The position numbers are program-made. From NCBI RefSeq assembly GCF_022846255.1, contig NZ_AP025682.1: 64,000 bases of DNA. One strand, given 5' to 3'. Of this stretch, positions 59,101-63,272 are shown piece after piece. The stretch's first letter is position 1; every line of letters starts with the position of its first letter. Source of the stretch: Escherichia coli (GTDB taxonomy: Bacteria; Pseudomonadota; Gammaproteobacteria; Enterobacterales; Enterobacteriaceae).

Positions 59101-62100
59101 GGGGCAACCTCTTCAGTCAGGTGTGCGATCTCCTGCACCGCATTCACATACGCCATTTCGCTGGCGATGAGTTCGTCCCATTGTTCTTCTGTCGCCAGGC
59201 GTAACATGAGCTGGCTTTTTTCGACGAGTTGTTGCCAGGCGAAATACAAATGCGGTGCATGGTTCATCAGACTGGGTCCTGAATCAAAGAAGGGGAGAGT
59301 AAAGACTCTTTCCAGGCATCGGCAATATTACGCATTAATGCTTCCACCTCTTCGACTGCGGAGACATCGTTGCGTAAATTGGCTTGCAGCAAACGCCTGA
59401 CCATATAGCTATAAAGAGCAATTAAGTTTTGGGTTAATTCGTCTTTGCTCTCTTCATCAAGACTCACCCGCAGTCCGTTCTCAATGATGTTGATCGCTTT
59501 TGACAAAGAGACACCTTTGCCTTGCTGATTGTTGTCCTGCATAAACAGGCGCGCTCTAACCAGTGCGCTCAGCACTCCATCAAATAGCATGGTGACCAAC
59601 TGCTGTTGGCTGGCGCTCATTACGGCGCTTTCGACGCCAATTTGTGCATAGGCCTGGGTGCCTTTTGCCGCGTACATGACCTGTCTCCCGATGAATATTG
59701 ATTACTTGGAATTACTGTTGTTTTCGAACTGCTGCGTTAAGTAGCTGCTGGTGCTGTTTAACGAGGTCATTAAAACGTCCAGTTGGGTAAATTGTTCTTT
59801 GTAGCGAGCGACCTGTGCATCAATGCGATCGCTGGCGGCGTTGTAGTCTTTAGTTAACTTATTCAGGGTCTTACTAACGCCATCGGTAGCGGCTTTAATA
59901 ATGCCTGTTGTCGAAAGCCAACTGGTCAGGTTGCTGCCGATGGTGGTCGTGATGCCGGTTTTTTTACCATCGCCAACAATCAATGCACCTACGCCGCTGG
60001 CATCTTTTTTCAGTGCAGCGGTGAGTTTGTCGGCATCCAGTTCCAGTTTGCCATCGCTGGGATCGGTCGTGATACCAATCTGCGCCAACGTTTTATAGTT
60101 GGAAGAACTAACGGTATTACTCAGCATCGATTTCAACTGCGTCTGAATCGTCCGCAACGTGGAGTCGCCGAGCAGTGCGCCATTGCTAGAACTCTGGCTA
60201 TCAGCCCCCGCATCTACGGCGGTGTATTTGGTCAGGCTGCTGAAGGTATCTATTAGCGAGTTATAGGCATTCACCCAGTCTTTAATCGCCGTTTGCGCTT
60301 TGGATGTGTCCTGAGTGATGGTTAGCGTCTGGTTGCCCGTGGTGACATCGTTCAGGTTCAGGGTGATGTTTTCCAGCGCGTCGCTGATGGTGTTGCTGCT
60401 GTTCTCAATGGCGACGTTATTGACCGTCAGCTGTGCATTCTGGGCGGCGACCGAGACCTCCATGCCGTTGCTGCTGGCACTGGCGTCATAGCCCATAAAA
60501 CTTTGTAGCGCATCATCACCGCTGACCGAGAGTGTCATCGCATTATCAAGGCCGGTGTCATTTGATGTGACTGACAGACGATATTCACCGTTACCCACGT
60601 TAATGATGCTTGCGCTTACGCCTGCTTTTGCGTTGTTGATGGCATCACGAATCCCGCTTAACGACGAGTTAGCCGCGCTGATATCAATGGCAATCGGATC
60701 TTTGTCGCCGCCTTGTTGAATGGTGAGTTTGCTGTCGCTGGTGGCGATCGCCGTTTTCGTATCGTCTCTGGTGGTGCGCGTTGTCAGGGTTTGCGCCTGC
60801 GCCAGATGGGTGACGCTGATGGTGTATTTCCCGGCGATGGCATTACCCGCGGTGGTGGCACTGAACGCGGTGGTGCTGCTGGTGGTGCTGGTAGCGGAAA
60901 AAAGATCGGCTTTAGACAATGCAGTATTGGCGGTCTGGAAAGTCGTCAGCGCGCTTTTCAGCGTACCGTAGGCGCTAAGTTTAGCGGTAAACGACGATTG
61001 CTGATTCGAAATAGGGGTTAGCGTCGCTTTTTGCGCGGCGGTGAGGCTATCAAGGATTGAACTTAAATCCAGACCTGACCCGACTCCCAGCGATGAAATA
61101 CTTGCCATGCGATTTCCTTTTATCTTTCGACACGTAAAACGAATACCGGGGTTATCGGCCTGAATTGCGCAAAGTTTACGTTTAATTGTTTTTTTTAATA
61201 GCGGGAATAAGGGGCAGAGAAAAGAGTATTTCGTCGACTAACAAAAAATGGCTGTTTGTGAAAAAAATTCTAAAGGTTGTTTTACGACAGACGATAACAG
61301 GGTTGACGGCGATTGAGCCGACGGGTGGAAACCCAAAACGTAATCAACGACTTGCAATATAGGATAACGAATCATGGCACAAGTCATTAATACCAACAGC
61401 CTCTCGCTGATCACTCAAAATAATATCAACAAGAACCAGTCTGCGCTGTCGAGTTCTATCGAGCGTCTGTCTTCTGGCTTGCGTATTAACAGCGCGAAGG
61501 ATGACGCCGCGGGTCAGGCGATTGCTAACCGTTTTACTTCTAACATTAAAGGCCTGACTCAGGCTGCACGTAACGCCAACGACGGTATTTCTGTTGCACA
61601 GACCACCGAAGGCGCGCTGTCCGAAATCAACAACAACTTACAGCGTATCCGTGAGCTGACGGTTCAGGCTTCTACCGGGACTAACTCTGATTCGGATCTG
61701 GACTCCATTCAGGACGAAATCAAATCCCGTCTCGACGAAATTGACCGCGTATCCGGTCAGACCCAGTTCAACGGCGTGAACGTACTGGCAAAAGACGGTT
61801 CGATGAAAATTCAGGTTGGTGCGAATGACGGCCAGACTATCACTATTGATCTGAAGAAAATTGACTCTGATACGCTGGGGCTGAATGGTTTTAACGTGAA
61901 TGGTTCCGGTACGATAGCCAATAAAGCGGCGACCATTAGCGACCTGACAGCAGCGAAAATGGATGCTGCAACTAATACTATAACTACAACAAATAATGCG
62001 CTGACTGCATCAAAGGCCCTTGATCAACTGAAAGATGGTGACACTGTTACTATCAAAGCAGATGCAGCTCAAACTGCCACGGTCTATACATACAATGCAT

Positions 62101-63272
62101 CTGCTGGTAACTTCTCATTCAGTAATGTATCGAATAATACTTCAGCAAAAGCAGGTGATGTAGCAGCTAGCCTTCTCCCGCCGGCTGGGCAAACTGCTAG
62201 TGGTGTTTACAAAGCAGCAAGCGGTGAAGTGAACTTTGATGTTGATGCGAATGGTAAAATTACAATCGGAGGACAGGAAGCCTATTTAACTAGTGATGGT
62301 AACTTAACTACAAACGATGCTGGTGGTGCGACTGCGGCTACGCTTGATGGTTTATTCAAGAAAGCTGGTGATGGTCAATCAATCGGGTTTAATAAGACTG
62401 CATCAGTCACGATGGGGGGAACAACTTATAACTTTAAAACGGGTGCTGATGCTGGTGCTGCAACTGCTAACGCAGGGGTATCGTTCACTGATACAGCTAG
62501 CAAAGAAACCGTTTTAAATAAAGTGGCTACAGCTAAACAAGGCACAGCAGTTGCAGCTAACGGTGATACATCCGCAACAATTACCTATAAATCTGGCGTT
62601 CAGACGTATCAGGCGGTATTTGCCGCAGGTGACGGTACTGCTAGCGCAAAATATGCCGATAATACTGACGTTTCTAATGCAACAGCAACATACACAGATG
62701 CTGATGGTGAAATGACTACAATTGGTTCATACACCACGAAGTATTCAATCGATGCTAACAACGGCAAGGTAACTGTTGATTCTGGAACTGGTACGGGTAA
62801 ATATGCGCCGAAAGTCGGGGCTGAAGTATATGTTAGTGCTAATGGTACTTTAACAACAGATGCAACTAGCGAAGGCACAGTAACAAAAGATCCACTGAAA
62901 GCTCTGGATGAAGCTATCAGCTCCATCGACAAATTCCGTTCATCCCTGGGGGCTATCCAAAACCGTTTGGATTCCGCCGTCACCAACCTGAACAACACCA
63001 CTACCAACCTGTCTGAAGCGCAGTCCCGTATTCAGGACGCCGACTATGCGACCGAAGTGTCCAACATGTCGAAAGCGCAGATTATCCAGCAGGCCGGTAA
63101 CTCCGTGCTGGCAAAAGCCAACCAGGTACCGCAGCAGGTTCTGTCTCTGCTGCAGGGTTAATCGCCGTAACCTGATTAACTGAGACTGACGGCAACGCCA
63201 AATTGCCTGATGCGCTGCGCTTATCAGGCCTACAAGGGGAATTGCAATTTATTGAATTTGCACATTTTTGTA

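What the first reader, a model, noticed from the sequence alone, without database searches (positions are those of the whole stretch)
61900..62900. Flagellin with an extended central variable domain (595 codons)
The fliC termini are the conserved flagellin D0/D1 segments, but the central region is long and Thr/Ala/Gly/Asn-rich. At 595 codons it is about 100 codons longer than the K-12 type, and from memory that length fits the H1/H12 group, though I cannot assign the H type from sequence alone. Together with the HPI it suggests an extraintestinal-pathogenic-type background.
Basis: partly seen in the sequence, partly recalled or inferred. Interest (0 to 1): 0.3.

Follow-up and report, generated by a model that had tools for sequence, protein, structure and literature searches.

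The report
Ordinary H1-type E. coli flagellin gene
This is an intact, well-known E. coli flagellin gene of antigen type H1, identical in protein to that of the urinary-tract strain CFT073; the only notable point is that it sits on a chromosome of a different lineage (ST648-like), where it arrived by recombination.

Summary
Window 61374..63161 (+) is one intact 595-codon fliC. Its ends are conserved and residues 176-505 form an Ala/Thr/Gly/Asn-rich centre (53%). It is 97 codons longer than K-12 fliC.

The H type can be assigned: it is H1, not H12.
- The protein is 100% identical to CFT073/LF82 FliC, with only 2 synonymous DNA differences.
- The central 903 nt are 100% identical to serotyped O6/O2/O18/O25/O83:H1 strains, 98.9% to the O139:H1 allele and 98.2% to H12.
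- All six published H1/H12-discriminating residues are in the H1 state.
- The central region is not a mosaic.

The HPI is present at the left end of the window.

The added result is that the chromosome is not the B2 type usually linked with H1. Window 20631-59033 differs at 2 of 38,403 bases from ST648 (phylogroup F, O1:H6) strain MS6198. From 59034, inside fliT, to at least 63939 the sequence is B2-like instead. So the H1 gene was imported on a tract of at least 5 kb, which most likely replaced an H6-type gene.

By homology to the solved H7 filament, the long centre should form three surface domains (D2-D4) that carry the H antigen.

Verdict: known gene, known process, low interest.

The parts
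61374..63161 (+). fliC, flagellin of H1 type, 595 codons plus stop
   Evidence: ORF. Pfam Flagellin_N, FliC and Flagellin_C. Protein 100% identical to CFT073 WP_000079699.1, with 2 synonymous nt differences at 61607 and 61826.
61374..61898 (+). Conserved N-terminal part (codons 1-175; D0/D1 filament core)
   Evidence: 167 of 175 residues identical to K-12 H48 and 173/175 to the solved H7 flagellin 7SN4.
61899..62888 (+). Central variable region (codons 176-505): the H1 antigenic part, predicted outer domains D2-D4
   Evidence: 53% T/A/G/N. The subregion 61911-62813 is 100% identical to serotyped H1 strains. H1-state residues E302, N340, G361, T391, N396, N430 (PMC4753304). 38.5% identity to the H7 outer domains, with the GNLTTN motif conserved.
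62889..63158 (+). Conserved C-terminal part (codons 506-595; D1/D0)
   Evidence: Pfam Flagellin_C at residues 508-593. 87/90 residues identical to H7.
61271..61297 (+). Sigma-28 (FliA) class-3 promoter-like site, TAAAGGTT-N11-GACGATAA, upstream of fliC
   Evidence: Read directly from the sequence. Comparison with the consensus TAAAGTTT-N11-GCCGATAA is from general knowledge; activity was not tested.
63336..63362 (+). Intrinsic terminator-like hairpin (7 G-C pairs) plus T-run, after fliC
   Evidence: sequence.
63167..63358 (+). fliC 3' UTR, homologous to the K-12 region annotated as small RNA FliX; contains REP-like palindromes at about 63200-63310
   Evidence: 95.8% identical over 192 nt to the K-12 fliX feature. 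Sequence. No Rfam family matched here.
59702..61108 (-). fliD (filament cap), inside the imported tract
   Evidence: ORF; annotation of the matching genes. Its haplotype is B2-like but unique.
59267..59677 (-). fliS (flagellin export chaperone), inside the imported tract
58902..59267 (-). fliT, which contains the left recombination junction
58977..59034 (.). Left junction of the imported tract
   Evidence: 58976 is the last site where the window equals MS6198 and differs from the six other comparators aligned at that position (K-12 is not aligned there). 59034 is the first MS6198-specific mismatch. Parental states are mixed up to about 59261.
59034..64000 (.). Imported B2-like tract (fliT 5' part, fliS, fliD, fliC, fliA 5' part); its right end lies beyond the window
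   Evidence: Against MS6198: 131/3851 aligned sites differ here, versus 2/38403 to the left. Against CFT073: 0.64% here, versus 3.4% to the left. The last MS6198 mismatch is at 63939.
63481..64000 (+). fliA (sigma-28), GTG start, cut by the window end
   Evidence: Sequence; the coordinate offset to the CFT073 annotation agrees.

Best explanation
Window 61374..63161 encodes the filament protein of the E. coli flagellum in its H1 antigenic form, specifically the allele carried by uropathogenic and adherent-invasive O2/O6/O18/O25/O83:H1 strains.

How it works, by homology. The conserved ends (residues 1-175 and 506-595) fold into the D0/D1 helical core that polymerises into the filament. This core is also the part the innate immune system recognises. 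The 330-residue centre forms three surface-exposed outer domains (D2-D4) of the same family as the H7 and H6 flagellins. These domains carry the H1 epitopes and probably pair up on the filament surface into an outer-domain sheath.

Expression. A sigma-28 promoter-like site upstream and a terminator-like hairpin in the 3' UTR fit the usual arrangement of a FliA-dependent gene.

Origin. The gene was not inherited vertically with this chromosome. The chromosome belongs to the ST648 (phylogroup F) clonal group, whose usual fliC is a 548-aa H6 type. A tract of at least 5 kb, running from inside fliT through fliS, fliD and fliC into fliA, was replaced by homologous recombination with DNA from a B2-like H1 donor. 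This switched the H antigen.

Shown: gene integrity, H1 identity, the mosaic structure of the locus and its direction. Inferred: domain architecture, sheath formation, expression, and the identity of the donor.
For: H1 identity:
- Protein 100% identical to CFT073 and LF82 FliC, with 2 synonymous nt differences.
- Central 903 nt 100% identical to Nissle 1917, CFT073, ATCC 25922 and strains labelled O18:H1, O2:H1 and O2:K2:H1; 98.9% to O139:H1; 98.2% to O15:H12 and O128ac:H12.
- All six residues that separate H1 from H12 in Beutin et al. 2016 (302E, 340N, 361G, 391T, 396N, 430N) are in the H1 state. The within-H1 sites 258A, 431T and 481V match the uropathogenic/AIEC cluster.
- The published H1 probe matches exactly; the H12 probe has 2 mismatches.

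Domain architecture:
- End-to-end match to the solved EHEC H7 filament 7SN4 (E 6.4e-192), with 38.5% identity in the centre.
- H7 N319 and N323, whose mutation disrupts the sheath and impairs motility (PMC8931119), align to H1 N310 and N314. G309, N310, L311, T312 and N314 are invariant in 7 E. coli flagellins.
- The best Foldseek hit of the predicted model is 7SN4 (E 7e-44), against 1e-16 for Salmonella-type flagellins.

Import:
- 2/38403 mismatches to MS6198 over window 20631-59033, then 50/2340 over 59034-61373 (Fisher p 6.5e-60).
- Divergence from CFT073 falls from 3.4% in the backbone to 0.11% in fliC.
- MS6198 is ST648, phylogroup F, O1:H6 (PMC8281228) and has a 548-aa FliC.
- The MS6198 amyA-fliD haplotype is shared at 100.0% by 45 complete genomes, MS6198 included. 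The window's fliT-fliD haplotype is found in none; the best match is 99.1%, to B2 strains.
- A contig from run DRR322657 is 100% identical to window 49702-63229. The combination therefore exists in an independently held public assembly and is not a chimaera peculiar to this window.
Against: - No serology or motility data exist, so whether H1 flagella are actually made is not shown.
- A second flagellin locus elsewhere in the genome cannot be excluded from a 64-kb window. Only one flagellin gene lies in the window.
- The structure model is of low confidence (mean pLDDT 63.8, pTM 0.37, 7-sequence alignment), so the D2-D4 and sheath inference rests mainly on sequence homology.
- The donor is unidentified. 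The fliT-fliD part differs from every H1 genome examined (27 sites from CFT073) and has 5 singleton sites, so two separate events cannot be excluded.
- The right junction lies outside the window.
- The ST of the window's own genome could not be determined, because no MLST loci are in the window.
Confidence: 0.93

Rival explanations
1. The gene encodes H12, the serologically cross-reacting sister type of the same length, not H1.
For: The length is the same (1788 nt), and the central region is 98.2% identical to H12 strains. At the two synonymous sites where the window differs from CFT073 (nt 234 and 453), it carries the base seen in the O15:H12 allele.
Against: All six H1/H12-diagnostic residues are in the H1 state. 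The window shows 7 aa and 42 nt differences from the O15:H12 gene, against 0 aa and 2 nt from CFT073 H1. The H12 probe mismatches at 2 positions and the H1 probe is exact.
Confidence: 0.01
2. The H1 gene is vertically inherited and the window comes from a classical B2 ExPEC clone such as ST73, as H1 plus HPI would suggest.
For: fliC is virtually identical to that of the ST73-type strains CFT073, Nissle 1917 and ABU 83972. The HPI is present.
Against: About 34.5 kb of backbone aligned to CFT073 to the left of fliT differs from it by 3.4%, but differs from ST648 strain MS6198 by only 0.005% over 38.4 kb. The accessory gene content between fliE and yedK follows MS6198, not CFT073.
Confidence: 0.02
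3. The window keeps the ancestral state, and the MS6198-like ST648 genomes are the ones that replaced their fliC region.
For: A pairwise comparison alone cannot polarise the event. ST648 carries several H types; PMC8281228 lists H6 and H4.
Against: In the tract the window is closer to B2 than anywhere else (0.64% versus 3.4% from CFT073), which is the signature of imported DNA in the window. 45 complete genomes (MS6198 included) share the MS6198 haplotype across the junction at 100.0%, and none shares the window's.
Confidence: 0.05
4. The gene is intact but is not the expressed H antigen, either because the strain is non-motile or because another flagellin locus elsewhere (flkA, fllA or flmA type) is expressed instead.
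For: This cannot be excluded from 64 kb. That such loci exist in some E. coli is general knowledge.
Against: The ORF is intact, with a sigma-28 promoter-like site, a terminator and intact neighbouring fliD, fliS, fliT and fliA start. There is no second flagellin in the window.
Confidence: 0.08

Closest known systems
E. coli H1 flagellin of ExPEC/AIEC strains (CFT073, Nissle 1917, ATCC 25922, LF82; RefSeq WP_000079699.1)
   Same: The 595-aa protein is identical. The central region is identical at nucleotide level, and the position between fliD and fliA is the same.
   Different: There are two synonymous substitutions (nt 234 and 453) not seen in any of the 5426 complete genomes; the best whole-gene identity is 99.9%. 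The chromosomal background is ST648-like, not B2.
E. coli H12 flagellin (e.g. O15:H12 strain 2273-PO3; reference Bi316-42)
   Same: Same length, 98.2% identity in the central region, and serologically cross-reactive with H1 according to PMC4753304.
   Different: 7 amino-acid differences, including all six diagnostic positions.
E. coli O139:H1 (edema-disease) H1 allele
   Same: Same H type and the same length.
   Different: 33 nt and 4 aa differences (A258T, V393A, T431A, V481I).
EHEC O157:H7 flagellin, cryo-EM filament 7SN4
   Same: Homologous from end to end (E 6.4e-192). The D4 dimer-interface asparagines are conserved. It is the best fold match for the model.
   Different: Only 38.5% identity in the outer-domain region. 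It is 10 residues shorter, with several indels, and is a different H antigen.
E. coli K-12 H48 flagellin (498 aa)
   Same: The D0/D1 ends are nearly identical, and the locus, promoter region and 3' UTR are shared.
   Different: The centre is unrelated in sequence and 97 residues shorter. According to PMC8931119, the K-12 outer domains are Salmonella-like and form no sheath.

Membership tests
Bacterial flagellin (FliC/FljB family) | N-terminal and C-terminal helical flagellin domains | tested here: met
   Pfam Flagellin_N 158.3 bits (cut-off 26.6) and Flagellin_C 109.6 bits (cut-off 23).
Bacterial flagellin (FliC/FljB family) | Position in the fliDST / fliC / fliAZ flagellar region | tested here: met
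   The gene order matches the annotated CFT073, MS6198 and K-12 records.
E. coli H1 flagellin | Coding length of 1788 nt / 595 aa | tested here: met
   PMC4753304.
E. coli H1 flagellin | H1 state at the six H1/H12-discriminating residues (302, 340, 361, 391, 396, 430) | tested here: met
   E, N, G, T, N, N, compared with the list in PMC4753304.
E. coli H1 flagellin | Central variable region matches strains serotyped as H1 | tested here: met
   100% over 903 nt to strains labelled O18:H1, O2:H1 and O2:K2:H1, and to CFT073 and Nissle 1917. O83:H1 strain NRG 857C and an O25:H1 strain match the whole gene at 99.9%.
E. coli H1 flagellin | Match to the published fliC-H1 real-time PCR probe and primers | tested here: met
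   The H1 probe is exact at nt 370 and the primers are exact. The H12 probe has 2 mismatches and the H12 reverse primer has 1.
E. coli H1 flagellin | Agglutination with H1 antiserum (the original definition of the type) | not testable with these tools
   Requires the strain.
E. coli H12 flagellin | H12 state (K, K, D, K, D, K) at the six discriminating residues | tested here: not met
   All six are in the H1 state.
Outer-domain-sheath flagellins (H7/H6/Achromobacter type, D2-D4) | Outer-domain region homologous to H7 D2-D4 | tested here: met
   A single end-to-end alignment to 7SN4, 642 bits, with 38.5% identity in residues 176-505.
Outer-domain-sheath flagellins (H7/H6/Achromobacter type, D2-D4) | Conserved D4 dimer-interface motif (H7 N319 and N323) | tested here: met
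   H1 N310 and N314 lie in GNLTTN. G309, N310, L311, T312 and N314 are invariant in the 7-sequence alignment A1; the interface is described in PMC8931119.
Outer-domain-sheath flagellins (H7/H6/Achromobacter type, D2-D4) | Predicted three-domain fold superposable on 7SN4 | tested here: inconclusive
   The model has mean pLDDT 63.8. The top Foldseek hit is 7SN4 (E 7e-44), but TM is only 0.34.
Outer-domain-sheath flagellins (H7/H6/Achromobacter type, D2-D4) | Outer domains actually dimerise into a sheath on the filament | not testable with these tools
   Needs cryo-EM of H1 filaments.
Yersinia high-pathogenicity island (HPI) | Yersiniabactin genes next to a tRNA-Asn and an integrase | tested here: met
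   irp1, irp2, ybtP, ybtQ and ybtS are annotated under a 100.0% match. tRNA-Asn lies at 21227-21302. An integrase is annotated next to it in MS6198.
ExPEC (extraintestinal pathogenic E. coli) | Operational virulence-gene set (pap, sfa/foc, afa/dra, kpsMT II, iutA; criteria recalled from memory) or clinical origin | not testable with these tools
   Those loci lie outside the 64-kb window. The only indirect evidence is that the backbone is near-identical to urine isolate MS6198, ST648.

The most novel reading that the evidence does not exclude
The window documents an H-antigen switch, most likely H6 to H1, inside the multidrug-resistance-associated ST648 clonal group. The switch came from a recombination tract of at least 5 kb from an unsampled B2-like donor. 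The resulting O?:H1 ST648 sublineage is absent from 5426 complete E. coli genomes and was found otherwise only in one public read-set assembly (DRR322657).
Probability: 0.8. Interest if true: 0.2.

Novelty: already known. Interest (0 to 1): 0.1.

Why it matters
It matters little beyond typing. It also shows that fliC type is a poor guide to genomic background, because the gene moved between lineages. For epidemiology, an ST648-like chromosome carrying H1 instead of H6 or H4 is a serotype variant that serotype-based tracking would misplace next to ST73-type strains. Exchange of fliC by recombination and the H1 flagellin itself are both well described.

Tried and rejected
1. Donor search. I looked up the window's exact FliD protein in public assemblies. 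It occurs next to 545-, 555- and 595-aa flagellins. However, all but one of those loci differ from the window by 11-25 nt in fliD alone, so they are not the donor. The exception, L012 from DRR322657, is the same lineage as the window.

2. Searches with window 58800-64000 and 58950-61370 against 5426 genomes gave best identities of only 99.4% (LF82) and 99.1% (536-like B2 strains). No donor could be named.

3. Mosaicism inside the central region was rejected, because it is 100% identical to the standard H1 allele. The two synonymous N-terminal differences happen to match the H12 base. They are flanked within 57 nt by H1-state sites, so they look like isolated polymorphisms rather than a conversion tract.

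4. Internal duplication as the cause of the extra length was rejected. There are only chance-level short repeats and one 19-nt hexamer run.

5. Structure prediction from a 7-sequence alignment gave a low-confidence model. I use it only as weak support.

6. Rfam found no family in the fliC 3' UTR. Similarity to K-12 FliX was shown by BLAST instead.

7. ORFs overlapping fliC in other frames or on the opposite strand (62317-62517 +, 62609-63007 -) were treated as frame artefacts of a known gene.
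Full report

Yes. The six-frame ORF list shows one long ORF at 61374..63161 on the + strand, encoding 595 aa.

- Pfam places Flagellin_N at residues 5-140, Flagellin_C at 508-593 and the enterobacterial FliC central family at 333-499. All score far above the curated cut-offs.
- Aligned with K-12 FliC, residues 1-175 and about 506-595 are almost identical. Residues 176-500 share only 1-8 identities per 25.
- Thr, Ala, Gly and Asn make up 53.0% of residues 176-505, against 34.9% and 30.0% in the two ends. The protein has no Cys, Trp or His.
- K-12 fliC is annotated at 1497 nt, or 498 aa.
- Neither the direct/inverted repeat search nor Tandem Repeats Finder finds an internal duplication that could explain the extra length.

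**2. Which H type?**

The whole gene matches 94 complete E. coli genomes at 99% or better. The top hits (99.9%) include Nissle 1917, CFT073, ABU 83972, ATCC 25922, LF82, O83:H1 NRG 857C, and strains labelled O18:H1, O2:H1 and O25:H1.

A base-by-base comparison with CFT073 and LF82 shows only two differences. Both are synonymous (codons 78 and 151; window 61607 and 61826), so the protein is identical to RefSeq WP_000079699.1.

The matches fall into three groups:
- 100% identical to the H1 strains above;
- 98.9% to the porcine O139:H1 allele;
- 98.2% or less to O15:H12 and O128ac:H12 strains.

Beutin, Delannoy and Fach (2016, PMC4753304) showed that H1 and H12 genes are both 1788 nt. [quoted passage not shown]
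- The window has E, N, G, T, N, N, all in the H1 state.
- It has A258, T431 and V481, which are the states shared with CFT073 and LF82, members of their large uropathogenic/AIEC H1 cluster.
- Their H1 probe and primers match exactly. Their H12 probe has two mismatches.

The gene is therefore H1, not H12, and its central region is not a mosaic.

**3. How it works**

The nearest solved structure by sequence is the cryo-EM filament of EHEC O157:H7, 7SN4. It aligns from residue 1 to 595 with E 6.4e-192. Identity is 98.9% in residues 1-175, 96.7% in 506-595 and 38.5% in the centre.

Kreutzberger et al. (2022, PMC8931119) report the following:
- These domains are unrelated in fold to the Salmonella and K-12 outer domains.
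- They pair by 180-degree rotation into an outer-domain sheath, which prolongs tumbling.
- Mutating the D4-interface residues N319 and N323 disrupts the sheath and impairs motility.

Those two asparagines align with N310 and N314 of the H1 protein, within GNLTTN. G309, N310, L311, T312 and N314 are invariant across the H1, H12, H7, H31 and H6 flagellins and a 545-aa type.

An AlphaFold2 model built from that seven-sequence alignment is of low confidence (mean pLDDT 63.8). Its best Foldseek match is still 7SN4 (E 7e-44), followed by the Azotobacter and Achromobacter filaments. Salmonella-type flagellins score 1e-16.

I therefore infer, but have not shown, the following. The conserved ends build the D0/D1 filament core. 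The long centre forms surface domains D2-D4 that carry the H1 epitopes and probably form an H7-like sheath.

The flanking signals are the usual ones:
- a sigma-28-type promoter-like site, TAAAGGTT-N11-GACGATAA, at 61271-61297 (read);
- a terminator-like hairpin at 63336-63352 followed by a T-run;
- a 3' UTR 95.8% identical to the K-12 region annotated as the small RNA FliX.

Only one flagellin gene lies in the window.

**4.

H1 with this allele is typical of B2 clones such as ST73, but the chromosome here is not of that kind.

- Window 1-25000 (HPI plus core genes) matches MS6198, ECONIH1 and others at 100.0%.
- Against MS6198, window 20631-59033 has 2 mismatches in 38,403 bases.
- From 59034 onward the two diverge: 50/2340 up to the fliC start, an unalignable fliC centre, and 16/661 after fliC (Fisher p 6.5e-60).
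- Against CFT073 the pattern is reversed: 3.4% divergence in the backbone, 1.15% in fliT-fliD, 0.11% in fliC and 0.36% in the fliC-fliA stretch.

MS6198 is a urine isolate of ST648, phylogroup F, serotype O1:H6 (PMC8281228). Its FliC has 548 aa.

The site table places the left junction between 58977 and 59034, inside fliT. Parental states are mixed in a short zone up to about 59261. The last MS6198-specific difference is at 63939, so the right junction lies beyond the window.

Direction of the event:
- The MS6198 haplotype spanning amyA to fliD is shared at 100.0% by 45 complete genomes, MS6198 included.
- The window's fliT-fliD haplotype is found in none.
- Its best matches are B2 strains such as 536, at 99.1%.

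The window's lineage is therefore the recombinant. A tract of at least 5 kb from a B2-like H1 donor replaced the resident segment, most likely one of H6 type.

The donor is not among the sampled genomes. The fliT-fliD part differs from CFT073 at 27 sites and carries five singleton sites. Two successive events therefore remain possible.

The combination is not a chimaera peculiar to this window. A 41.9-kb contig assembled from run DRR322657 is 100% identical to window 49702-63229, across the junction.

**5. Comparison with what is known, and verdict**

Protein, antigen type, gene position and regulatory signals are those of the textbook H1 fliC. Exchange of fliC between E. coli lineages by homologous recombination is long established; this is general knowledge, and the variety of H types within ST648 in PMC8281228 illustrates it. 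Nothing here is a new kind of system.

There is one caveat on the ExPEC inference. It turns out to be reasonable because the nearest chromosome is an ST648 urine isolate, not because of fliC, which was imported. The HPI is also weak evidence, since 2220 of 5426 complete genomes match at least 80% of window 1-25000.

The small new element is an ST648-like chromosome with an H1 gene, a combination absent from the complete-genome set. Interest is low.

Noticed in passing
window 63167-63358 (+): The fliC 3' UTR is 95.8% identical to the K-12 segment annotated as small RNA FliX. It contains REP-like palindromes (about 63200-63310), which probably explain why queries including this stretch hit dozens of places per genome. 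The assembly contig L012 also ends here. Rfam has no family matching it.
   Followed up: partly
window 59190, 59193, 59816, 60206, 60305: Five sites in fliT, fliS and fliD carry a base not seen in any of eight comparison strains (F, B2, O139:H1, O15:H12, K-12). The 2.4-kb fliT-fliD haplotype has no match better than 99.1% in 5426 complete genomes, even though fliC next to it is 99.9% identical to common strains.
   Followed up: partly
window 29500-31000: A porin gene (ORF 29835..30980, minus strand) is identical to MS6198 but very divergent from CFT073 (up to 181 mismatches per 500 nt). This is a second hypervariable surface-protein locus in the window. The sRNA rseX lies next to it at 31263-31352.
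   Followed up: no
window 52439-54476: The accessory segment between fliE and yedK differs between lineages. The window and MS6198 carry yedL, a frameshifted DUF5503 gene and an integrase fragment. CFT073 carries an ompC-like porin, ybcM, ybcL and emrE instead.
   Followed up: no
window 1-21302: The HPI (irp1 cut by the window start, irp2, ybtA/P/Q/X/S, integrase) ends at tRNA-Asn 21227-21302 and is 100.0% identical to ST648-type genomes. 2220 of 5426 complete genomes match at least 80% of window 1-25000.
   Followed up: partly
window 39688-39774 (+): The DsrA small RNA (Rfam RF00014, 102.5 bits) lies in the expected place near rcsA/dsrB.
   Followed up: no
L007, L009, L010, L011, L013 (loci): The window's exact 468-aa FliD protein is also encoded next to 545-aa and 555-aa flagellins in other genomes, but with 11-25 synonymous DNA differences. 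FliD protein identity is therefore not a marker of the fliC type.
   Followed up: partly
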